NCBI GenBank assembly: GCA_026770705.1 | Contig: JANJGN010000152.1 | Location: 1,116,001 to 1,180,000 of the forward strand | Source of the DNA: Isurus oxyrinchus | Taxonomy: Eukaryota | Reading direction: 5' to 3' | DNA length: 64,000 bases | Shown here: one piece after another, positions 4,338-44,376 of the stretch | Position numbering within the stretch: the first letter of the stretch is position 1 | Layout: each line of letters opens with the position of its first letter | Position numbers and translations under genes: made by a program | The notes under the pieces: model-generated | Database searches by the model: none | Told to the model about the DNA's origin: nothing | What the model saw: only the letters and a program-made list of their open reading frames with translations

Positions 4338-6594
4338 GAGCCCCCAATTATTATGACACAGCCAATGGTAAATGCTGAGTTGTTCAAATCCCAGAGGGAA
4401 ACTTGAAACAACTGCCATAACCCATTTATGCAATTTGTATGTTTCGAGATGCAGAATTTGAATTCAGTAGTGATAAGACCACAGAGTCTGAAGAGGTTTT
4501 TTATAAAACTAAATTAAACACTTATTAATACAAGAAAGATAGTAAGCACATACATATGTCTACAAAATTACTACTATAATAACTACAAAAATCTCATAAT
4601 TTATCATTGTCAGTTACACCCCAGTTAAGTCAACAGTAAAATACAGATTTAAACAGATCCCTGGCAAAGCACTCCCTGGACAGTCACATTCAATATGAAA
4701 CAAAAATAGAATTACCTGGAAAAACTCAGCAGGTCTGGCAGCATCGGCGGAGAAGAAAAGAGTTGACGTTTCGAGTCCTCATGACCCTTCGACAGAACTA
4801 GGTGAATCCCAGGGTGGGTTGAAATATAAGCTGGTTTAAGGTGGTGGTGGTGGGGGGTAGTTGGGTGGGGGGAGAGAAGTGGAGGGGGGTGGTGTGGTTG
4901 TAGGCAAAAGCAGTGGTAGAAGCAGATCATCAAAAGATGTCACAGATGGCAGAACAAAAGAACACATAGGTGTCGAAGTTGGTGATATTATCTGAACAAA
5001 TGTGCTAATTAAGAATGGATGGTAGGGCACTCAAGGTACAGCTCTAGTGGGGGTGGGGGGAGCATAAAAGATTTTAAAATATTTAAAAATAATGGAAATA
5101 GGAGAGAAAAAGAAAAATCTATATAATTTATTGGAAAAAATCAAAAGGAAGGGGGAAGAAACAGAAGGGGGTGGGGATGGAGGAGGGAGGTCAAGACCTA
5201 AAGTTGTTGAATTCAATATTCAGTCCGGAAGGCTAAGTGCCCTAGTTGGAAGATGAGGTATTATTCCTCCAGTTTGCGTTGGGCTTCACTGGAACAATGC
5301 AGCAAGCCAAGGACAGACATGTGGGGAAGAGAACAGGGTGGAGTGTTGAAATGGCAAGCGACAGGGAGGTTTGGGTCATTCTTGCGGACAGACTGCAGGT
5401 GTTCTGCAAAGCGGTTGCCCAGTTTACGTTTGGTCTCTACAATGTAGAGGAGACCACATTGGGAGCAATGAATGCAGTAGACTAAGTTGGGGGAAATGCA
5501 AGTGAAATGTTGCTTCACTTGAAAGGAGTGTTTGGGCCCTTGGACGGTGAGGAGAGAGGAAGTGAAGGGGCAGGTATTACATCTTTTGTGTGGGCATGGG
5601 GAATGCCATAGTTGGGGGTTGGGGAGTAGGGGGTGATGGAGGAGTGGACCAGGGTGTCCCAGAGGGAACGATCCCTACGGAATGGCGACAGTGGGGGTGA
5701 AGGGAAGATGTGTTTGGTAGTGGCATCATGCTGGAGTTGGCGGAAATGGCGGAGGATGATCCTTTGAATGCGGAGGCTGGTGGGGTGAGTCCTCCCCCCA
5801 CACACACACCTTAAGCCAGCTTATATTTCAACTCTTTCTTGGACTCAAACTCAAGTTCTGTTGAAGGGTCATGAGGACTCGAAAAGTCAACTCTTTTTTT
5901 CTCCGCCGCTGCTGCCAGACCTGCTGAGTTTTTCCAGGTAATTCTGTTTTTGTTTTTGTTTTGGATTTCCAGCATCCGCAGTTTTTTTGTTTTTATATTT
6001 CAACCCTCCCTGGGATTCACCTAGTTCTGTCGAAGGGTCATGAGGACTCTTTTCTTCTCCGCCGATGCTGCCAGACCTGCTGAGTTTTTCCAGGTAATTC
6101 TGTTTTTGTTTAGCACTGGTCCTTGCAGACAGGCTTAGAGGCTGGAGGCTTTGGATCTTAGAATCCCTCCTTTTTTACCAACAGCCTTCTCTTCCTTTAT
6201 ATATATATATATATTCCCCTTTGAGTGCAAATTTGCATTGTCACTCAGTTTTTTTAACTTTAAACCTACTAACAATGAAACCCTTTCATAATACTCACTT
6301 TACTAGTAAACTTTAAAAAAAATAAAGACATTGTTTCTGAGCTTCACCTGGTTAGATGTAATATTTCACCTCTTTTGAAATGTCTACTTAAAAACGCAAA
6401 TTAGCCCCTTTACCTCTCACCTTTTATGTTTATCTAATTACCATTTCAAACCAACTTATCTTCTATACATCAAAACCTCTAGATCAGCTGGCTTTAATCC
6501 AATTAAGACACACACATTTAGACACAGACACCACTAAACTCTATTTTTAAATAATTTCCAATAACGTTATAGGCATTATTATATCATCTTGACA
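4338..6594 (-). mobile_element. 5' LTR plus tRNA-Pro-type primer binding site of the gypsy remnant (LTR split by a Penelope-like insertion)
   Basis: On the minus strand the LTR starts TGTCAAGA at 6594 and ends ...TCATAATA at 4349, followed by TGGGGGCTC (4346-4338), complementary to the tRNA-Pro 3' end; lies just upstream of gag. Confidence 0.55.
4697..6110 (-). mobile_element. Truncated Penelope-like element (GIY-YIG end + pLTR) with inverted, tandem pLTR pieces
   Basis: ORF 5261-5518 NLVYCIHCSQCGLLYIVETKRKLGNRFAEHL; minus pLTR ~4697-5190; two plus-strand pLTR pieces 5790-6110; hammerhead motif at 4761-4799. Confidence 0.85.
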
Positions 6595-7510: not shown

Positions 7511-8630
<1,120 letters not shown>

Positions 8631-13422: not shown

Positions 13423-14544
13423 ATGGAAGGAAAAAGCACCGTTCACATCGGAGAGAAACTGTGGAAATGTGGAGACTGTGAGGAGGGATTCAGATTTCCA
13501 TCTGACCTGGAAACTCATCGACGCAGTCACACTGGAGAAAGGCCATTCACCTGCTCCGTATGTGGGAAGGGATTCACCCAGTCATCCAGTCTGCTGAGAC
13601 ACCAGCGAGTTCATAGAGGTGAGAGACCATTCACCTGCTCTGACTGTGGGAAGGGATTTGCTCAGTCATCTAACCTGCTGAGACACCAGCGAGTTCACAC
13701 TGGGGAGAGACCATTTACTTGCTCCAAGTGTGGGAAAGGATTCGCTCGGTCATCTGACTTGCTGACACACCAGCAAGTTCACACTGACGAGAGACCTTTT
13801 AAATGCTCAGACTGTGGGAAGTGCTTTAAAAGTTCCCGGGACCTGATGCTCCATCAACGTGTTCACACGGACGAGAGACCATTCAGGTGCTTTCATTGTG
13901 GGTCTGGATTCAGACAGTCATCTCAACTCACTGAGCACCAGCGAGTTCACACCGGGGAGAGGCCATTCACTTGCTCTGACTGTGGGAAGGGATTCGCTCA
14001 GTCATCCAACTTGCTGACACACCAGCGAGTCCACACTAGAGAGAAACCTTTCACCTGCTCTGACTGTGGGAAGGGATTCACTCAGTTATCCACCCTGCTG
14101 AATCACCAGAGTGTTCACACTGATAAGAGACCTTTTAAATGCCCAGAATGCAGAAAGTGCTATAAAAATTGCAGGGAGCTGATGTCCCATCAACGTGTTC
14201 ACACTGATAAGAGACCTTTTAAATGCCTGGACTGCGGAAACTGTTTTAAAAGTTCTGGGGAACTGATGCGCCATCAACGTATTCACACTGACGAGAGACC
14301 ATTCAGGTGCTCTCACTGTGGGACTGGGTTCAAGACATCATCTGATCTCACTGTACACCAACGAGTTCACACCGGGGAGAAGCCGTTCACCTGTCCCAAC
14401 TGTGGGAAGGGATTCACTCAGTCATCCACCCTACTGACACATCAGCGAGTTCACACTGGGGAGAGACCATTCATCTGCCCCAAGTGTGGAAAGAGATTCA
14501 CACAGTCATCCAACCTGATGAGACACCAGCGAATTCATAAGTAA
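13423..14544 (+). CDS. Intact tandem C2H2 zinc-finger protein, 13 fingers, no KRAB/SCAN/BTB domain in this exon
   Basis: Open frame from ATG 13423 ([19 protein letters not shown]...) to TAA 14544; 13 CxxC..HxxxH repeats with TGERP-type linkers; acceptor tttcacag at 13324; AATAAA at 14655-14660. Confidence 0.93.
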
Positions 14545-24103: not shown

Positions 24104-25173
<1,070 letters not shown>

Positions 25174-26400: not shown

Positions 26401-26490
26401 TTTCCTGCATCCTGGCAAAAACCCAAGGGCATGAAATTCTTTTTCGGTTCTCCCTGCACACGTTCTGTTTAAACAACATAATATTTTAAA

Positions 26491-29236
26491 AACAAAACAA
26501 AACTGCGGATGCTGGAAATCCAAAACAAAAACAGAATTACCTGGAAAAACTCAGCAGGTCTGGCAGCATCGGCGGAGAAGAAAAGAGTTGACGTTTCGAG
26601 TCGTCATGACCCTTCAACAGAACTTGATTTCGAGTCCAAGAAAGAGTTGAAATATAAGCTGGTTTAAGGTGTGTGTGTGGGGCGGAGAGATAGGGAGAGA
26701 GAGAGGTGGTTGTGTAGACAAACAAGCAGTGATAGAAGCAGATCATCAAAAGATGTCAGCGACAATGGTACAAAAGAACACATAGGTGTTAAAGTTAAAG
26801 TTGGTGATATTATCTAAACGAATGTGCTAATTAAGAATGGATGGTAGGGCACTCAAGGTACAGCTCTAGTGGGGGTGGGGGGAGCATAAAAGATTTTAAA
26901 ATATTTAAAAATAATGGAAATAGGTGGGAAAAGAAAAATCTATATAATTTAGAGGGAAAAAAAGGGAAAAAGGGGGAAACAGAAAGGGGGTGGGGATGGG
27001 GGAGGGAGCTCACGACCTAAAGTTGTTGAACTCAATATTCAGACCGGAAGGCTGTAAGGTGCCTAGTCGGAAGATGAGGTGTTGTTCCTCCAGTTTGCGT
27101 TGGGCTTCACTGGAACAATGCAGCAAGCCAAGGACAGACATGTGGGCAAGAGAGCAGGGTGGAGTGTTAAAATGGCAAGTGACAGGGAGGTTTGGATTAT
27201 TCTTGCGGACAGACCACAGGTGTTCTGCAAAGCGGTCGCCCAGTTTACGTTTGGTCTCTCCAATGTAGAGGAGACCACATTGGGAGCAACGAATGCAGTA
27301 GACTAAGTTGGGGGAAATGCAAGTGAAATGCTGCTTCACTTGAAAGGAATGTTTGGGCCCTTGGACGGTGAGGAGAGAGGAAGTGAAGGGGCAGGTGTTA
27401 CATCTTTTGCGTGGGCATGGGGTGGTGCCATAGGAGGGGGTTGAGGAGTAGGGGGTGATGGAGGAGTGGACCAGGGTGTCCCGGAGGGAGCGATCCCTAC
27501 GGAATGCCGATAAGGGGGGTGAAGGGAAGATGTGTTTGGTGGTGGCATCATGCTGGAGTTGGCGGAAATGGCGGAGGATGATCCTTTGAATGCGGAGGCT
27601 GGTGGGGTGATAAGTGAGGACAAGGGGGACCCTATCATGTTTCTGGGAGGGAGGAGAAGGCGTGAGGGCGGATGCGCGGGAGATGGGCCGGACACGGTTG
27701 AGGGCCCTGTCAACGACCGTGGGTGGAAAACCTCGGTTAAGGAAGAAGGAGGACATGTCAGAGGAACCGTTTTTGAAGGTAGCATCATCGGAACAGATGC
27801 GACGAAGGCGAAGGAACTGGGAGAATGGGATGGAGTCCTTACAGGAAGCGGGGTGTGAGGAGCTGTAGTCGAGGTAGCTGTGGGAGTCGGTGGGTTTGTA
27901 ATGGATATTGGTGGACAGTCTATCACCAGAGATTGAGACAGAGAGGTCAAGGAAGGGAAGGGAAGTGTCAGAGATGGACCACGTGAAAATGATGGAGGGG
28001 TGGAGATTGGAAGCAAAATTAATAAATTTTTCCAAGTCCCGACGAGAGCATGAAGCGGCACCGAAGTAATCATCGATGTACCGGAGAAAAAGTTGTGGAA
28101 GGGGGCCGGAGTAGGACTGCAACAAGGAATGTTCCACATACCCCATAAAGAGACAGGCATAGCTGGGGCCCATGCGGGTACCCATAGCCACACCTTTTAT
28201 TTGGAGAAAGTGAGAGGAGTTGAAGGAGAAATTGTTCAACGTGAGAACAAGTTCAGCCAGACGGAGGAGAGTAGTGGTGGATGGGGATTGTTCGGGCCTC
28301 TGTTCAAGGAAGAAGCTAAGGGCCCTCAGACCATCCTGGTGGGGGATGGAGGTGTAAACACCTGCCCCTTCACTTCCTCTCTCCTCACCGTCCAAGGGCC
28401 CAAACATTCCTTTCAAGTGAAGCAGCATTTCACTTGCATTTCCCCCAACTTAGTCTACTGCATTCGTTGCTCCCAATGTGGTCTCCTCTACATTGGAGAG
28501 ACCAAATGTAAACTGGGCGACCGCTTTGCAGAACACCTGCGGTCTGTCTGCAAGAATGATCCAAACCTCCCTGTCGCTTGCCATTTTAACACTCCACCTT
28601 GCTCTCTTGCCCACATGTCTGTCCTTGGCTTGCTGCATTGTTCCAGTGAAGCCCAACGCAAACTGGAGGAACAACACCTCATCTTCCGACTAGGCACCTT
28701 ACAGCCTTCCGGTCTGAATATTGAGTTCAACAACTTTAGGTCGTGAGCTCCCTCCCCCATCCCCACCCCCTTTCTGTTTCCCCCTTTTTCCCTTTTTTTC
28801 CCTCTAAATTATATAGATTTTTCTTTTCCCACCTATTTCCATTATTTTTAAATATTTTAAAATCTTTTATGCTCCCCCCACCCCCACTAGGGCTGTACTT
28901 TGAGTGCCCTACCATCCATTCTTAATTAGCACATTCGTTTAGATAATATCACCAACTTTAACTTTAACACCTATGTGTTCTTTTGTACCATTGTCGCTGA
29001 CATCTTTTGATGATCTGCTTCTATCACTGCTTGTTTGTCTACACAACCACCTCTCTCTCTCCCTATCTCTCCGCCCCACACACACACCTTAAACCAGCTT
29101 ATATTTCAACTCTTTCTTGGACTCGAAATCAAGTTCTGTCGAAGGGTCATGAGGACTCGAAACGTCAACTCTTTTCTTCTCCGCCGATGCTGCCAGACCT
29201 GCTGAGTTTTTCCAGGTAATTCTGTTTTTGTTTTGT
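26491..29236 (-). mobile_element. Young Penelope-like insertion forming a long inverted repeat, with 13-bp TSD
   Basis: Minus arm 26491-28355 (uninterrupted RT C-half + GIY-YIG + pLTR); plus arm 28356-29236 (GIY-YIG + pLTR); flanking direct repeat ATAATATTTTAAA at 26478-26490 and 29237-29249. Confidence 0.93.
29132..29170 (+). ncRNA. Minimal hammerhead ribozyme motif in the pLTR
   Basis: AGTT CTGTCGA A GGGTC ATGAG GACTC GAAAC GTC AACT; mirror copy on the minus strand at 26586-26624. Confidence 0.72.
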
Positions 29237-31510
29237 ATAATATTTTAAATATTTGCCTCAGGATTGGACTTAGATGCCCTTGCCTATCCCTGGCCTCCTG
29301 AGTGGATCTTTATTGTTATATTAGTTTGAAAAGGAATGAGGATGGGGGAGAATATTCTGTGTAGTTTTCAGCTCAGTTAAGGCCCAAAATACCCAATGTG
29401 TCGGACTGCCAGGGGAGGTAAATTTCTCTGGGACGTTCGGTTGCTAAACAGACACAACCCCTACAAAGTAAACAAGCATTCTCTTCATAGCAATAATTTC
29501 AGTAAAGGCTTTTAATTCATTTCCATTTAGGTTTTCAAATTAATTCTTGGGATGTGGGCTTTTGTGAGCAAGGCCAGCAAATATGGTGGATGAGTGCAGC
29601 TCCAACTACACTCTGGAAGCTTGGCAACATCCAGGACAAAGCAGCCTGCATGATTGACACTCCACCAACCAGCTTAAATATCCACTCTCTCCACCACAGA
29701 TGCAGAGTACTAACAATGTGTACCATCTATGAGATGAAGCAACTCACTAAGTTTTGTTCGACTGCACCTTTCAAACACACGGCTTTTATCACCTAGAAGG
29801 ACAAGGCCAGCGGACTCATGGAACACTGCCACCTGCAATTTCTCCTCCAAGCCACTCATCATCTTGACGTGGAATTATATCACCGTTCCTTCACTATCAG
29901 CTGATCAAAATCCTGGAACTCCCTTCCTAGCATCAGTGTGGTGTACCTACACTACATAGACTATAGCAGCTCAAGAAGCACCGCCTTCTCAAGGGCAATT
30001 AGTGATGGGCAATAAATGCTGGCCTCGCCAGCAACACCCACATCCCGTGAAATCCAACCTGCTCCACATGAAGCTGATTGTGGGCCTTCTTGATTCATAG
30101 CAGTCCTTGTGCTAAAGGCACTTTGACAATGCTGTTGAAGAGTCATACTGAGTCGAAACTTTAACTCTATTCCTCTCCGCAGATGCTGCCAGACCTGCTG
30201 AGTTTTTCCAGGTATTTTTATTTCTGTTTTGGATTACCAGCACCCGCAGTTTTTTGCTTTCATCTGCAGCAAAATCAACACGTCTTTCGATGCAGCTTAA
30301 CACAGTTACTCTCACCATTTCAAAGGTATCTCATTGTAATGTGTACTCACAAAGACAGAGATAGAGTGATCAGATCTAATTAACGCATCATTCTCAAGCC
30401 TATTCCCAGTAAAATTCTTGGATTTTGTTTAAAAGCTAACTGTGCTCAATTTCAAATGAGCACCATATGATTTGCATTACCTATTGACTGACATTCTTTC
30501 ATCTATCAGTCATGTTTGCAATTCGTGGCTGGTGTATATTTCAGAGAGTTTAAATTCAGACGTAGGCATCAATAACAGATAAAGTATGAATACTAAATAT
30601 AGCATAATGGAACAAATACTGAGTTTGTTTAATTTTGTCTGCCAAGGATAACACGGATGTTCCTTATAATTGAGCAGAAAGCATTGCACCCGGAGACATT
30701 TGCTGGATGGACACGTCTACATTGTGAAATTCAAAACAAGCTGAGGCACCAGGGTGAAACCAACAGTTGCTTCCCTGCAACAAGTGACTTGGACCCTTAG
30801 TCCAACCATTGGAAACCTTCAGACACCCTGGTAGCTCAGCACTGCCCTGTTTGTTACACAAATATTTATCCTCTGTTTAGAATCCATTCCAGGAACAAAA
30901 TTATTTCAAACCAAATGAACTAAACGAACAATTGAAGCACGCGATCTTGGCAGGGACCTGTTAAACTCCAGAACAAACATTTTCCTCTGTAATATCGCAC
31001 CCTCAGTTGAAGGGGTATGGAGCAAAAGCAATAAGATTGTCAACATAGTAAGGTTGAAAAAATAACACTTTTGCAAATTCGATATGAGATCAATTGCATA
31101 ATTACACCATGTTCATCTGGCAAAGTATGTTAGGAACCCAAGTCCAAATCGTCATGTCAATCTTGTGAATTAAGGCAACCCGGGCATGGATTCTGCAGAA
31201 ATGACAGTTTCAAAGGAGAGTTGAGTAATTTAATGAAATGGAGAAGAAATAGATCATTAAGTGAGAGAAGCAAATTGCGATGAATTAGTTTTCTCGTTTA
31301 AAAAGGGGCCTGACATCGAATGTTGGAAGGGCCTCTTTTGCCATTGTTTAGATACATGGTGCTAGGTCATTTTATGATTACATTGTTACATCAGTCTCGC
31401 TGCAGCGTTCCTGAGAACAGCAGCTGTATTCCATTTCTCCGCAAGAGACCAAGATTGCTGCTGAGTTACAGCACAGTTTAGCATTCCAGACAGCAATCCA
31501 TAATATGTCA

Positions 31511-31583
31511 GTTTCTGTAGTGTAGTGGTTATCACATTTGCCTAACGTGCGAAAGGTCCTTGGTTCGCAACAGAGTAGAAATG
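31511..31583 (+). tRNA. tRNA-Val(AAC), probably pseudogene
   Basis: GTTTCTGTAGTGTAGTGGTTATCACATTTGCCTAACGTGCGAAAGGTCCTTGGTTCGCAACAGAGTAGAAATG; T-arm mismatches. Confidence 0.8.
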
Positions 31584-31709
31584 TTATGAAAACTTAATCA
31601 TTAAATATTGATGATAGTTTGCATCTTTGAAGCTTACCTGAATCTCCAATGTTGCATGCAAATTGCATTTGTTTTCACCAAGGTCGTAAAATGCGTGCAG
31701 CAAAATCAG

Positions 31710-31965
31710 AATACCTGCAAAAACTCAGCAGGTCTGGCAGCATCTGCGGAGAGGAACACAGTTAATAAATAGATAAGAGGTAAAAGGTATATAAGATTTT
31801 ATATTTCTCCTCTTTTCTATTTTTAATTAGTTCTGTTGAAGAGTCATACGGACTCAAAACATTAACTGTCTTCCTCTCTGCAGGTGCTACCAGACCTGCT
31901 GAGTTTTTCTAGGTATTTTTATTTTTGTTTTGGATTTCCAGCACCCGCAGTTTTTTGCTTTTATC
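31710..31965. mobile_element. Non-autonomous pLTR-derived hairpin insertion with 14-bp TSD
   Basis: TGCAGCAAAATCAG at 31696-31709 and 31966-31979; inverted arms; hammerhead remnant 31829-31867; paralogs at ~33380-33635 and ~38205-38450. Confidence 0.8.
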
Positions 31966-33181
31966 TGCAGCAAAATCAGCATGTCTTTCGATGCAGCTTA
32001 AGACAGTTACTCACCATCTCAAATGTATCTCATTGTAACATGTAATCACAAAGATAGACAAAGAGAGATCAGATCTAATTAACCCATAATTCTCAAGCCT
32101 GATCCCAGTAAAATTCTTGCATTTTGTTTAAAAGCTAACTGCGCTCAATTTCAAATGAGAACCATATGACTTTCGTCTTTTGTCTATCAGTCATGTTTGC
32201 AATTCGGGGCTGGTATATAGTTCAGAGAGTTTAAATTCAGATGAAGGCATCAATAACAGAAAAAACATGAAGATTAAATATAGAATAACAGAACAAACAC
32301 CGCATTTCTTTAATTTCGTCTTGCAAGGATGAGAAGGATGTTCCTGATTGAGCAGAAAGCATTGCACCCGGAGACATTTCCTGGATGGACACGCCTACAT
32401 TTTGAAATTCAAATAAGCTGAGGCACCAGGCTGAAACGAACAGCTGTCTTCCTGCAACAAGTGACCCTCAGTCCAACCATTGGAAACCTCCAAACATTCT
32501 GGTAGCTCAGCATTGCCTGGTTTGTTCCACAAATATTTGTCCTCTGTTAGATTCTGCTACAGGATCAAAATTATTTCAAACCAAATGAAGTAAATGAAGA
32601 ATTGAAGCATGCAATCTTGGCAGGGCCCTGCTAAACTCCGGAACAAACATTTTCCTCTGTAATATAGCACCCTCGATTGAATGACTGTGGAGCAAAATAA
32701 TAAGATTGTAAAAATAGTAAGGTTGAAAAATCACACTTTCGCAAGTTCGATATGAGCTCAATTGCATAATGAAATCATGTTCATCTGGCGATGTATATGA
32801 GGAACCCAAGTCCAAATCGTCATGTGAACCTTGGAGTTAAGGTAACCCAGGCATGGATTCTGCAGAAATGACTTTTTCAAAAGGGAATTCAGCAATTTAT
32901 TGAAAGGGAGGAAAAAACGGGCTCATTAAGAGAGAGAAGCAATTTGCGATTAGTTAGTGTGCTCGTTTAAAAAGGGGCCTCGGATCGGATGATAGAAGGG
33001 CCTCTTATGCCTTTGATTGGATGCACGGTGCTAGGCCATTTTATGATTACATTGTTACATGAGTCTTGCTGCAGCGTTCCTGAGAATAGCAGCTGTATTT
33101 CATTGCTCTGCAACAGGGACTCAGATTGCTGTAGTGTTATAGCGCAGTTTAGCATTCCAGACAGGGCTACATGATATATCT

Positions 33182-33254
33182 GTTTCTGTAGTGTAGTTGT
33201 TATCACATTCGCTTAACACGCAAAAAGTCCCCAGTCCAAAACCGGGCAGAAACA
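33182..33254 (+). tRNA. tRNA-Val(AAC), probably pseudogene
   Basis: Val body; anticodon loop TT AAC AC; B-box altered (CAGTCCAAAAC). Confidence 0.8.
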
Positions 33255-33500
33255 TTGTGAAAACTTAATCATTAAATATTGAGGATAATTTGCATCTTTG
33301 AAGCTTACCTGAATCTCCAATGTTGCATGCAAATTGCATTTGCTCTCACCGAGGTCATAAAAAGCATGCAGCCAAATCAGAATACCTGCAAAAACTCAGC
33401 AGGTCTGGCAGCATCTGCGGAGAGGAACACAGTTAATAAATAGAAAAGAAGTAAAAGGTATATGAGATTTTTATATTTCTCCTCTTTTCCAATTTTACTC

Positions 33501-33539
33501 AGTTCTGTTGAAGAGTCACATGGACTCGAAACGTTAACT
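33501..33539 (+). ncRNA. Minimal hammerhead ribozyme motif within a tRNA repeat unit
   Basis: AGTT CTGTTGA A GAGTC ACATG GACTC GAAAC GTT AACT: perfect stems I and II, palindromic AACGTT; similar copy at 38326-38363. Confidence 0.65.
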
Positions 33540-34837
33540 GTGTTCCTCTCCGCAGATGCTGCCAGACCTGCTGAGTTTTCCAGGTATTTTTCCTTTTGTT
33601 TTGGATTTCCACCACCCACAGTTTTTTGCTTTTATCTGCAGCAAAATCAGCACGTCTTTCGATACAGCTTAAAACAGTTACTCACCATGTCAAAGGTATC
33701 TCATAGTAACGTGTGCTCATAAAGACAGACAAAGAGTGATCAGAACTAATTAACGCATCATTCTCAAGCCTATTCCCAGTAAAATTCTGGCATTTTTTTT
33801 AAAAGCTAACTGTGCTCAATTTCAAATGAGCACATATGATTTGCATTACCTGTTGACTGACATTCTTTCGTCTATCAGTCATGTTTGCAATTCGGGGCTG
33901 GTGTATATTTCAGTAAGTTTAAATTCAGACGAAGGCATAAATAACAGATAAAATATGAATATTAAATATAGAATAAGGGAACAAATACTGAGTTCCTTTA
34001 ATTTCGTCTTCCAAGGATGAGAAGGATGTTCCTGATGATTGAGCAGAAAGCATTGCACTCGGAGACATTTGCTTGACGGACACGTCTACATTTTGAAATT
34101 CAAAACAAGCTGAGGCACCAGGGTGAAACCAACAGTGACATGGACCCTCAGTCCAACCATTGGAAACCTTCAAATACCCTCAGCACTGCCCAGTTTGTTC
34201 CACAAATATTTATCCTCTGTTAGATTCCAGTCCAGGAACAAAATTATTTCAAACCAAATGAAGTAAAGGAACAATTGAAGCACGTGATCTTGGCCGGAGC
34301 CTGTTAAACTTCGGAACAAACATTTTGCTCTCGGTTGAAGGGGAATGGAGCAAAAGTAATAAGATTGTAAAAATAGTAAGGTTGAAAAAATAACACTTTC
34401 GCAAATTCGATGTGAGATCAATTGCATAATTACATCATGTACATCTGGTAAAGTATATTAGGAACCCAAGTCCAAATCGTCATATGAACCTTGTCAATTA
34501 AGGCAGCGCAAGCATGGATTCTGCAGAAATGACTTTTTCAAAAGAGAATTGAGTAATTTAATGAAAGGGAGAAGAAATAGATCATTAAGAGGGAGAAGCA
34601 AATTGTGATGAATTCGTTTAAAAAGGGGCCTGAGATCGGATGTTGGAAGGGCCGCTTTTGTCACTGTTTGGATACGTGGGTGCTAGGCCATTTTATGATT
34701 ACATTGTTACATCGGTCTCGCTGCAGCGTTCCTGAGAACAGCAGCTGTGTTCCATTTCTCCGCGATAGAGACCCAGATTGCTGCAGCGTTACAGCACAGT
34801 TTAGCATTCCGGACAGGATTAGTGACAATGTGCGGCA

Positions 34838-34910
34838 GTTTCTGTAGTGTAGTGGTTATCACGTTCGCTTCACATGCGAAATGTCCTCGGTTCAAAACCA
34901 AGCAGAAACA
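34838..34910 (+). tRNA. tRNA-Val(CAC), probably pseudogene
   Basis: GTTTCTGTAGTGTAGTGGTTATCACGTTCGCTTCACATGCGAAATGTCCTCGGTTCAAAACCAAGCAGAAACA. Confidence 0.82.
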
Positions 34911-36391
34911 TTATGAAAACTTACTCATTAAATAGTGAGGATAATTTTCGTCGTTGAAGCCTACCTGAATCTCCTATGTTGCAGGCAATATTGCATTTGT
35001 TTTCACCGAGGTCACAAAATGAATGCAGCAAAATCAGCACCTGCTTAGATTCCATGACACATTTGAGTGGATAGATGTTCATATTTCACTGCACTTACAT
35101 ATTAGCAGCTCGTTTAGTCAACACGATAAATCAATGGGCTTTTCGATGCAGCTTAAGAAAGTTACTCACTGTGTCAAAGGTGTCTCAGTGTAATGTGTGC
35201 TCATAAAGACAAAGAGGGATCAGATCTAATTAACGCATCATTCCCAAGCCTATTTTCTGTAAAATTCTTTGATTTTGTTGAAATGCTGACTGTTGTGCTA
35301 CATCTCACATCAGACCCATAGCAAATGCCTTACCTGATGACTTACATTCTTTTGTTTACCAGTCAAGTTTGCAGTTGGATGTTGTCGATTTCAGAGAGCA
35401 TCAAGTCAACCAAGGGCATCAATATTAAATATAATAATAGTGAATGGTGAATAAGGTAAAAAAAATTGCTGGGAAAAGTTTGTTGAATTTCTTCTGCCGA
35501 GGAGAAGTGTGTTCATAATGATTTAGCAGGAAGCATTGCTGCCTAAGACACTAGCTGAACCGAGAATTCTGCATTTTGAAATTCAAACAAACAGAGGCAC
35601 CAGGTGGAAACCTAGAGTTGTTTTTCTGTAACAAGTGACATGACATCCCAGTCTTACCATTGGAATCCTCCAAACATTCTGGTAGATCAGCACTATCCTG
35701 TTTCCTAAAGAAATATATATTCTGTGAAATTACATTCCCAGAACAAAATTATATTTAAACAACTGAACGAAACGACCTATTACAGCATGTGATCCTGGCA
35801 GGGCTCCGTTTAACTGTAGCAATCATTTTCCTCTGTGATATAACACCCTTGATTAATGAGTCATGAAGCAAATGTAATCAGATTGTGTAAATAACTCAGA
35901 AATAATGAGATGTTTGATTAGAAAAGTAAGCATTTTCGTCAATTCGATATGAAAACAAGAGATAAGTAAATAATGTTCATATGCATAGTTATGTAAGGAA
36001 CACAAGTCTAAACCTTCATGGCACTGGGTGAGGGAAACGTTGTTAATTCAGGCAAACTAGGCATGGAATCTGCAGAAACTCCTTTTTCAAAAGGGAATGA
36101 TGCAATTAATTGATATGCAGAAAAATAACAACTTCACTAATAGAGAGAAGGAAACTGGGATTAATTGGTTGGCTCTTTTAAAAAACTGACAGGGAAAAGA
36201 TGATCGAAGGGCCATTGCATGGATACATGGTGTTAATCCATTTTATGATGACATTGTTATTGAGTCTGTCTGCAGCATTCCCAATTATAGCAGCTGAATT
36301 CCATTTCTCCCATCCAAAGAGCCAAAGCGCTGCTGCATGACATCACAGTTTACCATTCCAGATAGATTCACTGCAGTCATGTCTGGCCAAT

Positions 36392-36464
36392 GTTTCTGTA
36401 GTGTAGTAGTTGTCACGTTTGCCTCACACGTGAAAAATCATCGGTTTGAAACCAGGCAGAAACC
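36392..36464 (+). tRNA. tRNA-Val(CAC), probably pseudogene
   Basis: Val body with CT CAC AC loop; D-loop and T-arm substitutions. Confidence 0.78.
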
Positions 36465-38005
36465 TTATCCAAGCTTGCCAATTTTGAGAGAGGAAAATTT
36501 GTGTATGTCAGGTTTGTTGTTGAATGTTACCTGAATCTCACATGCTTCAGAAATGGTGTTTTTGCTCTTACCTGGGCCTTGAAATGAATGCAGCAAAATG
36601 AGAAATACTGAAATTTCATGACACACTGTGTAGAAATAGATGTTCGTTTTTTGACTCAGCACACATTTTAGCAGTTCGTCTGGCCAGCAACAGAATTTAG
36701 TGGGTTCTCGATGCAGATTCACATCGTTAAGCACCATCTGAAAGATGTCTCATGCTAAAGTGTGCACATAAGGACAGGTGCAAGTGATGCTTCAATTGAA
36801 CCAGAGGAAATGACAGACCTGTTACAGAATGACTCCTTTAAATATTCGGTCTTCAGCATAGAGTATCAGAAAAAATGACCGAGGGAGTCATGGAAACCGA
36901 GGCACAGTGCAGATCTGCTGGCTTCCCCCCTGTCTTCTACATGGTTGCGATTAAGGCACCAGAAGGCTTCTCACCTGGAGCAAAGAGGGATCAAATATAA
37001 TGAACGCATAATTCTCAAAACTGCTCCCAGTAAAATTCCTGCATTTTGTTTAAAAGCTAATTGTACTTAATTTCAAAAGAGCACCACATGGTTTGCATTA
37101 CCTGTTGATTGGCATTCTTTTGTCCATCAGTCATGTTTGCAATTCGAGTTTCGGTGTATCTTTCAGAGAGTCTCAATTCAAATGAAGGCAGCAATAACAG
37201 ATACAATATTAATATTAAATATAGAATAACGGAACAAATGCAGAATGAAGTTTGTTTAATTTTGTCTGCCAAGGATAAGACAGATATTCCTAATAATTGA
37301 GCAGAAAGCATTCCACCCGGAGACGTTTGCTGGATGGACATGCCTACATTTGAAATTCAAATAAGCTGAGGCACCAGGCTGAAACGAGTCTTCCTGCAAC
37401 AAGTGACCCTTAGCCCAACCATTGGAAACCTCCAAACATTCTGGTAGCTCAGCATTGCCTGGTTTGTTCCACAAATATTTATCCTCTGTTAGATTCTGGT
37501 ACAGGATCAAAAGTATTTCAAACCAAATGAAGTAAATGAAGAATTGAAGCATGCAATCTTGGCAGGGCCCTGCTAAACTCCGGAACAAACATTTTCCTCT
37601 GTAATATAGCACCCTCGATTGAATGACTGTGGAGCAAAATAATAAGATTGTAAAAATAGTAAGGTTGAAAAATCACACTTTCGCAAGTTCGATATGAGCT
37701 CAATTGCATAATGAAATCATGTTCATCTGGCGATGTATATGAGGAACCCAAGTCCAAATCGTCATGTGAACCTTGTGAGTTAAGGTAAGCCAGGCATGGA
37801 TTCTGCAGAAACGACTTTTTCAAAAGGGAATTCAGCAATTTAATGATAGGGAGGCAACAACTGGTTCATTAAGAGAGAGAAGCCATTTGCGATTAGTTAG
37901 TGTGCTCGTTTAAAAAGGAGCCTCGGATTGGATGATAGAAGGGCTCAGATTGCTGTAGCGTTATAGCGCAGTTTAGCATTCCAGACAGGGCTACATGATA
38001 TATCA

Positions 38006-38079
38006 GTTTCTGTAGTGTAGTGGTTATCACATTCGCCCTCACACACACCAAGGCCGCGGTTTGAAACAGGGCAGGAACA
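38006..38079 (+). tRNA. tRNA-Val(CAC-like), pseudogene
   Basis: 5' half intact; anticodon arm disrupted (ccctcacacacacc); B-box GGTTTGAAAC. Confidence 0.75.
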
Positions 38080-39687
38080 TTATGAAAACTTAATCATTAA
38101 ATATTGAGGATAATTTGTATCTTTGAAGCTTACCTGAATCTCCAATGTTGCATGCAAATTACATTTTCTCTCATCGAGGTCATAAAACACGTGCAGCAAA
38201 ATCAGAATTCCTGCAAAAACTCAGCAGGTCTGGCAGCATCTGCGGAGAGGAACACAGTTAATAAGTAGAAAAGAGGTAAAAGGTATATAAGATTTTATAT
38301 TTCTCCTCTTTTCTCTTTTTACTTTGTTCTGTTGAAGAGTCATACGGACTCGAAACGTTAACTGTCTTGCTCTCCGCAGATGCTGCCAGTCCTTCTGAGG
38401 TATTTTTATTTTTGTTTTGGATTTCCAGCACCCACAGTTTTTTGCTTTTATCTGCAGCAAAATCAGCACGTCTTTCAATGCAGCTTAAAACAGTTACTCA
38501 CCATATCAAAGGTATCTCATTGTAACGTGTACTCACAAAGACAGTAAAAGTGTGATCAGATCTAATTAACGCATCATTCTCAAGCCTATTCCCAATAACA
38601 TTCTTGGATTTTGTTTAAAAGCTAACTTCGCTCAATTTCAAATGAGCATCATATAATTTGCATTTCCTATTGACTGACATTCTTTCATCTATCAGTCATG
38701 TTTGCATTTCGTGGCTGGTGTATATTTCAGAGAGTTTCAATTCAGACGAAGGCATCAATAACAGATAAAATATGAATATTTAATATAGAATAAGGGAACA
38801 AATACTGATTTTCTTTAATTTCGTCTTCCAAGGATGAGTAGGAAGTTCCTGATGATTGAGCAGAAAGCATTGCACCTGGAGACATTTGCTGGACGGACAC
38901 GTCCACATTTTAAAATTCAAAACAAGCTGAAGCACCAACAGTTGCTTCCCTGCAACAAGTGACATGGACCCTCAGTCCAACCACTGGAAACCTTCAAACA
39001 CCCTGGTAGCTCAGCACTGCCCAGTTTGTTCCACAAATGTTTATCCTCTATTCGATTCCGGTCCAGGAACAAAATTATTTCAAACCAAATGAAGTAAAGG
39101 AACAATTGAAGCACGTGATTTTGGCAGGGCCTTGTTAAACTCCGGAACAAACATCTTCCTCTGTAATATCGCACCCTCGATTGAAGGGCTGTGGAGCAAA
39201 TGTAATAAGATTGTAAAAATGGTAGGGTTGATAAAATAACACTTTCGCAAATTCGATATGAGATCAATTGCATAATTCAATCATGTTCATCTGGCGAAGT
39301 ATATTAGGAACCCAAGTCCAAATCGTCATGTGAATCTCGTGAATTAAGGTAACCCAGGCATGGATTCTGCAGAAATGACTTTTTCAAAAGAGAATTGAGT
39401 AATTTAATGAAAGGGAGAAGAAATTGATCATCAAGAGAGAGAAACAAATTGTGATGAATTAGTTCTCTCCTTTAAAAAGGGGCCTAAGATCGGATGTTGG
39501 AAGGTTCTCTTTTGCCATTGTTTGGATACATGGTGCTAGGTCATTTTATGATTGCATTGTTACATCAGTCTCACTGCAGCGTTCCTGAGAACAGCAGCTG
39601 TATTCCATTTCTCGGCAATAGAGACCCAGATTGCTGCTGAGTTACAGCGTAGTTTAATGTTCCGGACAGGATTAATGACACCCGGCA

Positions 39688-39760
39688 GTTTCTGTAGTGT
39701 AGCGGTTATCATATTCGCCTTACACGCGAAAGGTCCCTGGTTCGAAACCGGGCAGTAACA
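39688..39760 (+). tRNA. tRNA-Val(TAC), best-preserved copy of the array
   Basis: GTTTCTGTAGTGTAGCGGTTATCATATTCGCCTTACACGCGAAAGGTCCCTGGTTCGAAACCGGGCAGTAACA; intact B-box and anticodon stem, one T-T mismatch in the acceptor stem. Confidence 0.85.
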
Positions 39761-41584
39761 TTATGAAAATTTACTCATTAAATAGTGAGTACAATTTTCT
39801 TCGTTGAGGCTTACCTGAATCACCAATGTTGCAGGCAATATTGTATTTGCTCTCGCCGAGGTCACAAAATGAATGCAGCAAAATCAGCTCCTGCTGAGAT
39901 TCCATGACACACTTGGTGGACAGATGTTCCTCGTTCACTGCGTTTACATATTAGCAGCTCGTTTAGTCAACAAGAAAAATCAATGGGCCTTTCGATGCAG
40001 CTCAAGAAAGTTACTCGCCAAGTCTCAGTGTAATGTGTGCTCACAAAGACAGACAAAGATTGATCAGATCTAATTAGCGCATCATTCTCAAGCCTGTTTC
40101 CTGTATCATTCTTTGATTTTGTTGAAATGCTGACTGTTGTGCTACACCTCAAATCAGACTCATCGCAAATGCATTACCTGGTGACTTACATTCTTTTGTT
40201 TGCCAGTCAAGTTTGCAATTCGATGTTGTCTATTTCAGAGAGCCTCAAGTCAACGAAGGGCATCAATATCAAATACATTAATACTGAACGGTGAATAAGG
40301 GAAAAAAATTGCTGAGAAAAGGTTGTTGATTTTCGTCTGCTGAGGAGGAGAATTGTGTTCATAATGATTGAGCAGAAAGCATTGCTGCCTAAGACATTTG
40401 CTGAACCGAGAATTCTGCATTTTGAAATTCAAGCAAACAGAGGCACCAGATGGAAACCAAGAGTTGTCTTTCTGTCACAAGTGACTTGACGTCTCAGTGT
40501 AACCATTGGAATCCTCCAAACATTCTGGTAGATCAACACTTTTTCCTAAAGAAATATGTATTCTGTAAGATTACCTTCCCAGAACAATGCATTTTAAACC
40601 AAATGAACGAAACAAATATGCCAGCCTTTGATCTTTTAAGGCTCTGTTGAACTGTAACAATGATTTCCCACTGTGATATAACACCCTTGATTAGCGGTTT
40701 GTGGAGCAAATTTAATTAGATTGTGTAAATCAACTCAGAAATAATGAGATGTTTGTTCAAAAAAATAAACACTTTTGTCAATTCGATATGAATTCAATAG
40801 AAAAAGTAAATACTGTTCATATTCATAGCTATGTAAGAAGCACTGGTCTAATTCTTCAAGGTATTGGGTGAGGGAAACACTGTTAATTAAGGTAAACTAG
40901 GCATGGAATCTGCAGAATCTCCTTTTTCAAAAGGGAATTGTGCAATTAATTGACATTCAGAATAATAACGGGTTTACTAAAAGAGGGAAGGAAACTGAGA
41001 TTAATTGATTTGCTCTTAAAAAGCTGATGGAGACAGGATTATAGATGGGCCCCTTATGCCATTGAATAGATACATGGTGCTCTGCCGTTTTATGATTACA
41101 TTGTTATATGAGCATGTCTGCAGCATTCCTGATAATACCAGTTGAATTCCATTTCACCGAAACAGAGACCCAGAGCGCTGCTGCATGACAGCATGGCTTA
41201 ACATTCCGGAGAGGCCCTGGTCAGTCAGACAGCTCACCCTTCATTCTCCCCTGATTCCGTTTCCTAAAGAGTTTGTAAATATTCACAGAACTGGGTTTCC
41301 TGTTTTGGTTCCTCCTCCATTTTTCCACCTGCCAACTAACAGCATTTTCCAAAATCTCGTCACAATGTTCCGCCTTGCACCATGTTCAGGGGTGAACACA
41401 TTCAGTTTTGTTTTCTTTAGAGCAAAGCAGGTTAAACTGAGTTTTCGTGGTGTTGTTTAAAATTATTGGGCTGAGGAAGGGATCGGCGGCGGGCGGTTTG
41501 ATAGAGCAGTTAGGGAGAAACTGTTCCCACTCTCGAGGGTCAGTCACCAGAGGACTGGGGTTTATGATAATTAAATAACGATAG

Positions 41585-44294: not shown

Positions 44295-44376
44295 CACAGT
44301 CGGCAGGATTCAAAACTACATGGAAAGATCCCAATGGATTTCGAATCCATCGCCTTAACCACTCGGCTACAACTAC
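44295..44376 (-). tRNA. tRNA-Ser(CGA), probably pseudogene
   Basis: Reverse complement GTAGTTGTAGCCGAGTGGTTAAGGCGATGGATTCGAAATCCATTGGGATCTTTCCATGTAGTTTTGAATCCTGCCGACTGTG; 82 nt with long variable arm. Confidence 0.82.

What the first reader, a model, noticed from the sequence alone, without database searches (positions are those of the whole stretch)
31696..38470. Ribozyme-bearing hairpin cassette downstream of array tRNAs, with filled and empty sites side by side
Seen: a ~256-bp pLTR-derived insert with TSD TGCAGCAAAATCAG lies ~125 bp 3' of tRNAs 1, 2 and 5 (partial copy at ~30130-30270). The single-copy empty site is present at 35024-35037 and ~39874. The insert is a fold-back whose ~55-bp left arm is the reverse complement of the sequence starting at the hammerhead cleavage triplet (ttaactg...), with the ribozyme core in the loop, on the same strand as the tRNA. 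Inference: the arm end may record a self-cleaved RNA 5' end used as template. A Pol III promoter plus a sense-strand hammerhead, repeated in tandem, also recalls retrozyme/satellite transcription units. Caveat: T4+ runs between tRNA and ribozyme could end Pol III transcripts first.
Basis: partly seen in the sequence, partly recalled or inferred. Interest (0 to 1): 0.7.

Follow-up and report, generated by a model that had tools for sequence, protein, structure and literature searches.

The report
Penelope fold-back passenger in tRNA array
The hairpin is real, but it is the standard back-to-back footprint of a very common jumping gene (Penelope) that likely landed once behind a valine tRNA gene and was multiplied with the tRNA array; related insertions across the genome almost never end at the ribozyme's predicted cut site but about 35 bases upstream, at a predicted transcription start, so it is likely a fossil and not a tRNA-driven ribozyme RNA.

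Summary
Observation largely confirmed: a 256-bp fold-back with a 14-bp target duplication behind three tRNA-Val genes. It is a head-to-head pair of Penelope-like pLTRs. One shared junction marks all copies, so it is one insertion amplified with the array (about 47 units of a 4,985-bp three-tRNA repeat, plus a 17-hit 2-kb array). 'Empty' sites are other unit types. The left arm does not stop at the cut site: it runs on and lacks 38 nt of hammerhead. At most about 1% of 92,572 young copies start at the cut. The hammerhead has a non-canonical U6 core, is sequestered by the fold-back, and lies beyond three T4 terminators. By-products: 49 of 50 fold-backs pair one tailed with one tail-less arm; the element's RNA likely starts at hammerhead stem I and integrates uncut. 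Transcription is untested. The scan noted a similar Penelope palindrome in a tandem repeat of another genome (e1-9137382).

The parts
31511..31583 (+). tRNA-Val(AAC), decayed copy, filled unit
   Evidence: 37.5 bits; T4 already at +89
31696..31979 (+). Cassette 1 with TSDs 31696-31709 and 31966-31979; core G12 lost, triplet AUU
33182..33254 (+). tRNA-Val(AAC), filled unit
   Evidence: 47.4 bits; first T-run of 4 or more at +214
33367..33380 (+). 5' target-site duplication of cassette 2 (one mismatch)
33381..33468 (-). Left arm: inverted, tail-less pLTR (about +55 to -64) lacking 38 nt of the hammerhead; junction at 33435-33438
33469..33636 (+). Right arm: pLTR from about -65 to +100, with tail
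33500..33540 (+). Minimal type I hammerhead motif, core CUGUUGA (U at position 6), predicted cut 33535/33536; A33501 matches the family's predicted transcription start
   Evidence: sequence; anatomy per PMC4209133
33637..33650 (+). 3' target-site duplication of cassette 2
34838..34910 (+). tRNA-Val(CAC), unit type without insert
35024..35037 (+). Empty target site in a paralogous unit
36392..36464 (+). Degenerate tRNA-Val(CAC), third unit type
   Evidence: not called
36589..36602 (+). Diverged empty site of the third unit type
38006..38079 (+). Broken tRNA-Val copy, filled unit
   Evidence: T4 at +86
38192..38466 (+). Cassette 3 with TSDs 38192-38205 and 38453-38466; 9-nt deletion in right arm, stem I shortened
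39688..39760 (+). tRNA-Val(TAC), unit without insert
39874..39887 (+). Empty target site
30132..30278 (+). Right half of a further cassette at the edge of the cluster; stem II broken

Best explanation
The cassette is a head-to-head pair of Penelope-like pseudo-LTRs inside a 14-bp target duplication, likely from one old insertion behind a tRNA-Val(AAC) gene and likely carried passively as the tRNA array expanded. Inferred mechanism: the element's GIY-YIG endonuclease cut both strands about 14-15 bp apart; one DNA end primed reverse transcription at the distal site (tailed arm, +100) and the other at the proximal site (tail-less arm, about +55 to +70); the two cDNAs, copied from uncut RNA, were joined head to head near -65. 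The left arm lost 38 nt spanning the hammerhead, during copying or soon after by slippage in the palindrome, before any duplication. Unequal exchange then spread the unit. Pol III from the tRNA would stop at or before +213, inside the cassette but before the hammerhead, so no self-cleaving unit RNA is expected. Shown: anatomy, copy numbers, shared junction, end statistics. Inferred: priming order, cause of the deletion, Pol III end points, ribozyme inactivity.
For: Parent family: 8,817 exact 22-mer hits; upstream ORF pieces give weak RVT_1 (E 0.0013) and GIY-YIG (E 0.0044) hits, below curated cut-offs. 64 head-to-head events in 230 dispersed loci; 50 have TSDs of 12-18 bp (mode 15, one mismatch allowed) and 49 of 50 pair a tailed with a tail-less arm, as the cassette does. 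The junction 30-mer has 65 exact hits, all on C26 and clustered at four places where tRNA-Val units were found, and it is shared by 11 of 11 units aligned. Inner ends: 4 of 100 within 3 nt of the cut, 38 of 100 at -44..-31. Copy 5' ends: young family 1 of 100 at the cut, 38 of 100 at -31..-44; parent 2 of 99 at 0..-3. First T4 at +213/214 in 20 of 24 main-array filled units, earlier in 4, core at about +249. The hammerhead is no more conserved than the rest of the insert. Inverted pLTR, TSD and one-sided tail are described in PMC3846280 and PMC8557442; uncleaved RNA is the dominant substrate in vitro in PMC11167929.
Against: No RNA data: the best RNA runs hold only 0.04-0.07 of the words and no reads were laid. 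The whole insert is somewhat less diverged among units (0.04-0.06) than the spacers (0.07-0.09) (units are not independent). The junction has a possible 3-nt TTA microhomology spanning the cut, so a cleaved template fits this one event. The young family's loss at the cut step is twice the control (0.50 vs 0.25%), which may be base-specific mutation or a small real class; one clean copy starts exactly at the cut (L281). The parent family's own pile-up at -31..-44 is not significant alone (9 of 32 ends within 77 nt, p 0.11). One ORF piece gave no Pfam hit.
Confidence: 0.85

Rival explanations
1. The left arm was copied from a self-cleaved RNA: reverse transcriptase ran off at the cut and jumped to the 5' cleavage product upstream of stem I.
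For: The downstream breakpoint lies within 4 nt of the cut, and a parse with TTA microhomology spans it. 4 of 100 inner ends lie within 3 nt of the cut; L281 starts exactly there; the young family shows a 0.25-point excess loss at the cut step.
Against: One event only. The simplest alignment keeps the whole triplet (A for G, the common CpG-decay form seen). 4 of 87 ends in the -80..+70 range falling in a 7-nt window is what an even spread gives. L151 is explained by AACT microhomology. It needs a rare cleavage plus a template jump. In the older family with a canonical CUGAAGA core, 0 of 44 unselected copies were scored at 0..-3 and at most 2 lie within 4 nt by eye.
Confidence: 0.1
2. The array uses tRNA promoters to make a long 3' trailer whose last ~95 nt are antisense to the 5' end of Penelope RNA, and this RNA helps silence the element.
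For: Main-array tRNA-Val(AAC) genes look intact (63.8 bits). In 20 of 24 the first T4 is at +213/214, after the antisense arm. About 47 units exist. Long read-through trailers occur in human tDNAs (PMC3141230).
Against: Insert-free CAC genes have an equally distant first T4 (+229), so the long trailer predates the insert. Two partial terminators (TAT3 at about +23, TCT3 at about +41; sequence; classes per PMC3141230) precede the arm. The arm matches the older parent subfamily, not the 92,572-copy young one. No RNA evidence.
Confidence: 0.07
3. tRNA promoter plus hammerhead in tandem forms a retrozyme- or satellite-like unit that yields self-cleaved monomers or circles.
For: Hammerhead on the tRNA strand, repeated about 47 times at 4,985 bp and 17 times at about 1,978 bp.
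Against: Period far above the 51-972 bp of vertebrate non-LTR retrozymes (bioRxiv 10.64898/2026.07.22.740005). Three T4 runs precede the core and many follow. U6 core; A6C costs more than 10,000-fold in Mg2+ relative to Mn2+ in another hammerhead (PMC7151607; A6U not tested there). Minimal HHRs need dimers (PMC4209133). Stem I is sequestered. No dispersed copies of the junction.
Confidence: 0.03

Closest known systems
Endonuclease-bearing Penelope-like elements with inverted 5' pLTR, TSD and one-sided tail (Pen2a_Av of Adineta vaga, PMC3846280; general scheme in PMC8557442)
   Same: Head-to-head inverted pLTRs, target duplication, 30-40-bp tail on one end only, hammerhead motif within the pLTR, GIY-YIG and RT remnants upstream in the family.
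   Different: No ORF in this copy; TSD 14 bp against 8-10 bp in the rotifer cases; left arm lacks the hammerhead; amplified inside a tRNA gene array; family-wide U6 core.
Poseidon element of Anolis carolinensis (PAc), in vitro study PMC11167929
   Same: Two reverse-transcription start sites bounding the tail, both strands cut and extended, hammerhead cleavage not needed, no RNA ends at the cut site. The genomic ends here fit all of this.
   Different: The clade of this family was not tested. The 49-of-50 one-tail pairing and the 5'-end pile-up at stem I are genomic counts not seen in the parts of that paper read.
Metazoan non-LTR retrozymes (PMC7229834; bioRxiv 10.64898/2026.07.22.740005)
   Same: pLTR-derived type I hammerhead present in tandem repeats.
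   Different: Repeat period 1.7-5 kb built on tRNA genes, one hammerhead per three-tRNA unit, variant core, terminators before the ribozyme, no dispersed monomers.
tRNA genes with distant terminators and long 3' trailers (PMC3141230)
   Same: No T4 within 200 nt in most main-array AAC and CAC genes; partial terminators upstream.
   Different: Here the predicted trailer would end in transposon antisense sequence; untested.

Membership tests
EN+ Penelope-like element insertion | pLTR belongs to a family with RT and C-terminal GIY-YIG endonuclease | tested here: met
   Weak RVT_1 (E 0.0013) and GIY-YIG (E 0.0044) Pfam hits on ORF pieces upstream of a parent pLTR in L190, below cut-offs; the L091 piece gave none though it shows the same YIG motif.
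EN+ Penelope-like element insertion | Inverted 5'-truncated pLTR adjacent to a direct pLTR, flanked by a TSD | tested here: met
   50 independent cases with TSD.
EN+ Penelope-like element insertion | 30-40-bp tail on one end | tested here: met
   Right arm to +100, left arm to about +55; 49 of 50 elsewhere.
EN+ Penelope-like element insertion | Clade (Penelope/Poseidon, Neptune or Nematis) by RT phylogeny | not tested
   No tree built.
Minimal type I hammerhead of PLEs | Stem I, stem II, GAAA, NUH in order | tested here: met
   Sequence 33500-33540; the right arm alone folds close to this shape.
Minimal type I hammerhead of PLEs | Conserved core C3U4G5A6NG8A9 | tested here: not met
   CUGUUGA in 11 of 11 units; position 6 is not A in 54 of 59 scorable parent and 81 of 81 scorable young copies; it is A in 24 of 27 scorable copies of the older family.
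Minimal type I hammerhead of PLEs | Self-cleavage | not testable with these tools
   Needs an in vitro assay.
Non-LTR retrozyme | Short tandem unit (up to about 1 kb) with a complete hammerhead in consecutive units | tested here: not met
   Periods 4,985 and about 1,978 bp; 1,671 bp between window copies 1 and 2.
Non-LTR retrozyme | Transcript spanning two hammerheads, giving linear or circular monomers | tested here: inconclusive
   Only a run search was done (small shares); T4 runs argue against a Pol III route.
Non-LTR retrozyme | Mobility as a unit (dispersed monomers) | tested here: not met
   65 of 65 exact junction hits lie in four clusters on C26; exact matching misses diverged copies such as the window's own.

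The most novel reading that the evidence does not exclude
About 47 intact tRNA-Val genes read through weak terminators into the inverted arm and release, after tRNA 3' processing, a roughly 210-nt Pol III trailer antisense to the start of Penelope RNA: a tRNA array co-opted as a source of anti-transposon RNA, with occasional read-through giving a long double-stranded hairpin.
Probability: 0.07. Interest if true: 0.65.

Novelty: new member of a known kind. Interest (0 to 1): 0.3.

Why it matters
The cassette itself is ordinary. The test it prompted has some value for an open question, what Penelope hammerheads do. In this genome the fossil ends say the integrated RNA was nearly always uncut (at most about 1% of young copies start at the cut). 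Ends pile up at the first base of stem I, 30-31 nt downstream of a TATAAA box in the older family, so the transcript likely starts with the ribozyme. Two successful subfamilies (8,817 and 92,572 exact-match copies) carry a non-canonical position 6. The 49-of-50 pairing of a tailed with a tail-less arm is genomic support for two-site priming in one integration event. These fit PMC11167929 and sharpen it; four searches listed no paper whose title or abstract opening reports the 5'-end map, but subscription papers are not covered.

Tried and rejected
Rfam hammerhead models: no hit. A wide-gap pattern search for fold-backs was not possible, so fold-backs were collected from loci of short patterns. 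Sequencing runs: RNA runs hold 0.04-0.07 of the words, which is no evidence either way; no reads were laid, so transcription stays open. Splicing as the cause of the -35 ends: 20 copies scored as non-inverted (one, L243, is in fact inverted) share no upstream exon and do not match the L190 element, so a transcription start is preferred; no extra G opposite a cap was seen (2 of 20). Collinear hammerhead deletions like the cassette's: none in 154 dispersed loci. ARAGORN at a lowered threshold gave noise and was replaced by a motif scan. Automatic end calls in the older family are noisy (for example L333 scored -35, by eye -3). A hammerhead census in the random 200 kb was too strict to be informative (1 hit). 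A paper search for shark Penelope/Poseidon returned 0, and one for tRNA arrays gave mitogenome papers. Earlier findings: none nearby; the sequence look-up was unrelated.
Full report
Coordinates written as +n or -n count from the predicted hammerhead cut (0 = first base after it; 33536 in window copy 2), except Pol III positions, which count from the tRNA 3' end.

1. Observation. Three inserts of 256, 256 and 247 bp lie between copies of TGCAGCAAAATCAG at 31696/31966, 33367/33637 and 38192/38453, about 126 bp after tRNA-Val genes; a right half lies at 30132-30278; single sites lie at 35024, 39874 and, diverged, 36589. The fold is -132.5 kcal/mol, z -14.5. ARAGORN and Rfam call four of six tRNA-Val copies; a motif scan finds all six. 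Rfam has no hammerhead hit.

2. Anatomy. Against a consensus of 16 long parent copies, the right arm is pLTR from about -65 to +100, tail included. The left arm is the inverted pLTR from about +55 to -64 with 38 nt missing (about -41 to -4). So the arm does not end at the cut; the hammerhead is a bulge on one side of a longer stem. The junction can be read as a 38-nt loss keeping the triplet (with G to A, a common form), or as a 39-nt loss at TTA microhomology plus one base. The second reading spans the cut, so this junction alone cannot decide.

3. One event, amplified. The window is G000:C152:1,116,001-1,180,000 of a 4.98-Gb genome; the repeats look shark-like, which is a recalled resemblance and was not tested. 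The junction 30-mer has 65 exact hits, all on C26: 46 in an array at 30.40-30.63 Mb (period about 4,985 bp, about 47 units), 17 at 22.14-22.17 Mb (period about 1,978 bp) and two single hits. The main unit has three tRNA-Val genes: AAC with the insert (63.8 bits), CAC without (67 bits), and a degenerate CAC (36.8 bits). Window copies are decayed outliers (37.5 and 47.4 bits). Empty sites belong to the other unit types, about 68% identical in the spacer; AAC genes without the insert also exist (L101, L104). All 11 units aligned share the junction.

4. Parent family. A 22-mer starting at the cut has 8,817 exact hits, a younger subfamily 92,572, an older one 10,312. ORF pieces upstream give weak RVT_1 and GIY-YIG hits below cut-off (another piece none). 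In 230 dispersed loci there are 64 head-to-head pairs; 50 have a TSD of at least 10 bp (12-18, mode 15, one mismatch allowed), and 49 of these 50 pair one tailed with one tail-less arm (p 9e-14 against even odds). The 14 pairs without such a TSD were left out of these counts; with them 5 of 128 inner ends lie within 3 nt of the cut and 41 at -44..-31. The cassette is a typical member.

5. Inner ends of the 50 pairs: 4 of 100 within 3 nt of the cut, 38 of 100 at -44..-31. Loci were picked by patterns, so one arm always holds cut-proximal sequence, and stem II as well for L071-L120. For copies picked only by sequence 3' of the cut (first 100 on C1): parent, 2 of 99 ends at 0..-3 and 9 at -31..-44 (not significant alone, p 0.11); young, 1 of 100 at 0 and 38 at -31..-44 after removing one mis-call (p about 1e-16 before removal); older family, 0 of 44 unselected scored at 0..-3 (at most 2 within 4 nt by eye) and 12 at -31..-44, with noisy calls. 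Whole-genome counts: 8,407 of 8,817 parent copies keep the triplet; 92,110 of 92,572 young copies keep a pyrimidine at -1 (loss 0.50%) against 93,187 of 93,425 at a control step (0.25%). Doubling for chance matches, at most about 1% start at the cut. The excess may reflect C versus A mutability (general knowledge) or a small real class. In the older family 8,961 of 10,312 keep the triplet; of the 11 misses among the first 100, none is cut off at 0 and most keep GAAA-like sequence upstream.

6. What the -35 ends are. They fall at the first base of stem I. In the older family TATAAA starts at -66, 30-31 nt before that A in 5 of 7 long copies scored; the parent has TATATTT at -64 and TTAGTT at the site. 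No shared upstream exon was found. Inference: reverse transcriptase ran off the transcript's start, so the RNA begins with the hammerhead and was copied uncut. This agrees with PMC11167929 (parts 1-2 of 4 read): cleavage is not needed in vitro and no reads end at the cut.

7. Ribozyme competence. The core is CUGUUGA in 11 of 11 units. Position 6 is not A in 54 of 59 scorable parent and 81 of 81 scorable young copies (40 and 19 unscorable), and is A in 24 of 27 scorable older copies (24 unscorable). A6 belongs to the consensus core, and A6C is deleterious in Mg2+ (PMC7151607, passages; A6U not mentioned). Minimal PLE hammerheads are inactive as monomers and weak as dimers (PMC4209133, parts 1-2 of 4). 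Forcing the hammerhead fold costs 9.5 kcal/mol in the whole cassette against 2.4 in the right arm alone. Pairwise divergence of the hammerhead (0.047-0.063) equals that of the rest of the insert (0.041-0.062); spacers are higher (0.073-0.092), a mild point against pure neutrality. Arm changes in the main array are not mirrored in the other arm.

8. Pol III. In 20 of 24 main-array filled units the first T4 is at +213/214, then about +229 and +237; the core starts at about +249; 4 units stop earlier. Two of three window copies have T4 at +86/+89. Partial terminators of the classes in PMC3141230 (abstract, section 13 and part 1 of section 14 read) lie at about +23 and +41. A read-through trailer would hold the antisense arm but not the hammerhead. 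Insert-free CAC genes also lack T4 until +229, so this is not an adaptation to the insert. RNA evidence is lacking.

9. Comparison. Inverted pLTR, TSD and one-sided tail are described in PMC3846280 and PMC8557442 (passages). Retrozymes are short repeats: 150-450 bp in PMC7229834 (passages), 51-972 bp in bioRxiv 10.64898/2026.07.22.740005 (part 1 and passages). PMC2377424 (passages) describes a TATA-less internal promoter for Drosophila Penelope, which differs from the TATA-like site inferred here. An earlier scan note on another genome (e1-9137382) reached a similar verdict; it is unchecked and not counted as support.

10. Verdict. Real feature, known kind: a Penelope fold-back riding in a tRNA-Val array (0.85). 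Cleaved-template origin of this junction 0.10; functional antisense trailer 0.07; retrozyme-like unit 0.03. Interest 0.3, mostly for the family-wide end map.

Noticed in passing
G000:C26:30.40-30.63 Mb (L032-L044): Tandem array of about 47 units of about 4,985 bp, each with three tRNA-Val genes (AAC, CAC, degenerate CAC), so about 140 genes; most AAC and intact CAC genes have no T4 within 200 nt.
   Followed up: partly
G000:C26:22.14-22.17 Mb (L102, L103): Second array (period about 1,978 bp, 17 junction hits). In the unit read, the right arm switches into an inverted copy of the left flank and tRNA and then back into the pLTR, an inverted duplication apparently seeded by the fold-back; its tRNA has lost the 3' end.
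   Followed up: partly
dispersed Penelope copies on C1 (L121-L336): 5' ends pile up at the first base of hammerhead stem I, about 31 nt after a TATA-like box, in three subfamilies; predicted transcription start.
   Followed up: yes
dispersed fold-backs: 49 of 50 head-to-head insertions have exactly one tailed arm; TSD mode 15 bp.
   Followed up: yes
two younger Penelope subfamilies, e.g. window 26487-26624, 29132-29238, 4698-4799: Hammerhead core shifted from CUGAAGA to CUGUUGA and CUGUCGA in families with about 9,000 and 93,000 exact-match copies.
   Followed up: partly
young subfamily, e.g. window 29100-29140: A partial repeat GGACTCGAAATCAAGTT just upstream of the hammerhead resembles a second GAAA-UC cleavage-like site next to the -35 ends.
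   Followed up: no
window 7615-8313, 13527-14537, 24146-24914: 84-bp tandem repeats of C2H2 zinc-finger-like coding sequence, three clusters.
   Followed up: no
window 44295-44376 (-): Lone tRNA-Ser(CGA), 46.3 bits, with mismatched stems.
   Followed up: no
window 5821-6111: Two pLTR copies in direct tandem; the second lacks 13 nt across the cleavage site at an ACTC microhomology.
   Followed up: no
L045:8463 (-): A tRNA-Val gene interrupted by a separate young Penelope insertion near the end of the main array.
   Followed up: no
window 60112-60247: Run of 136 N.
   Followed up: no
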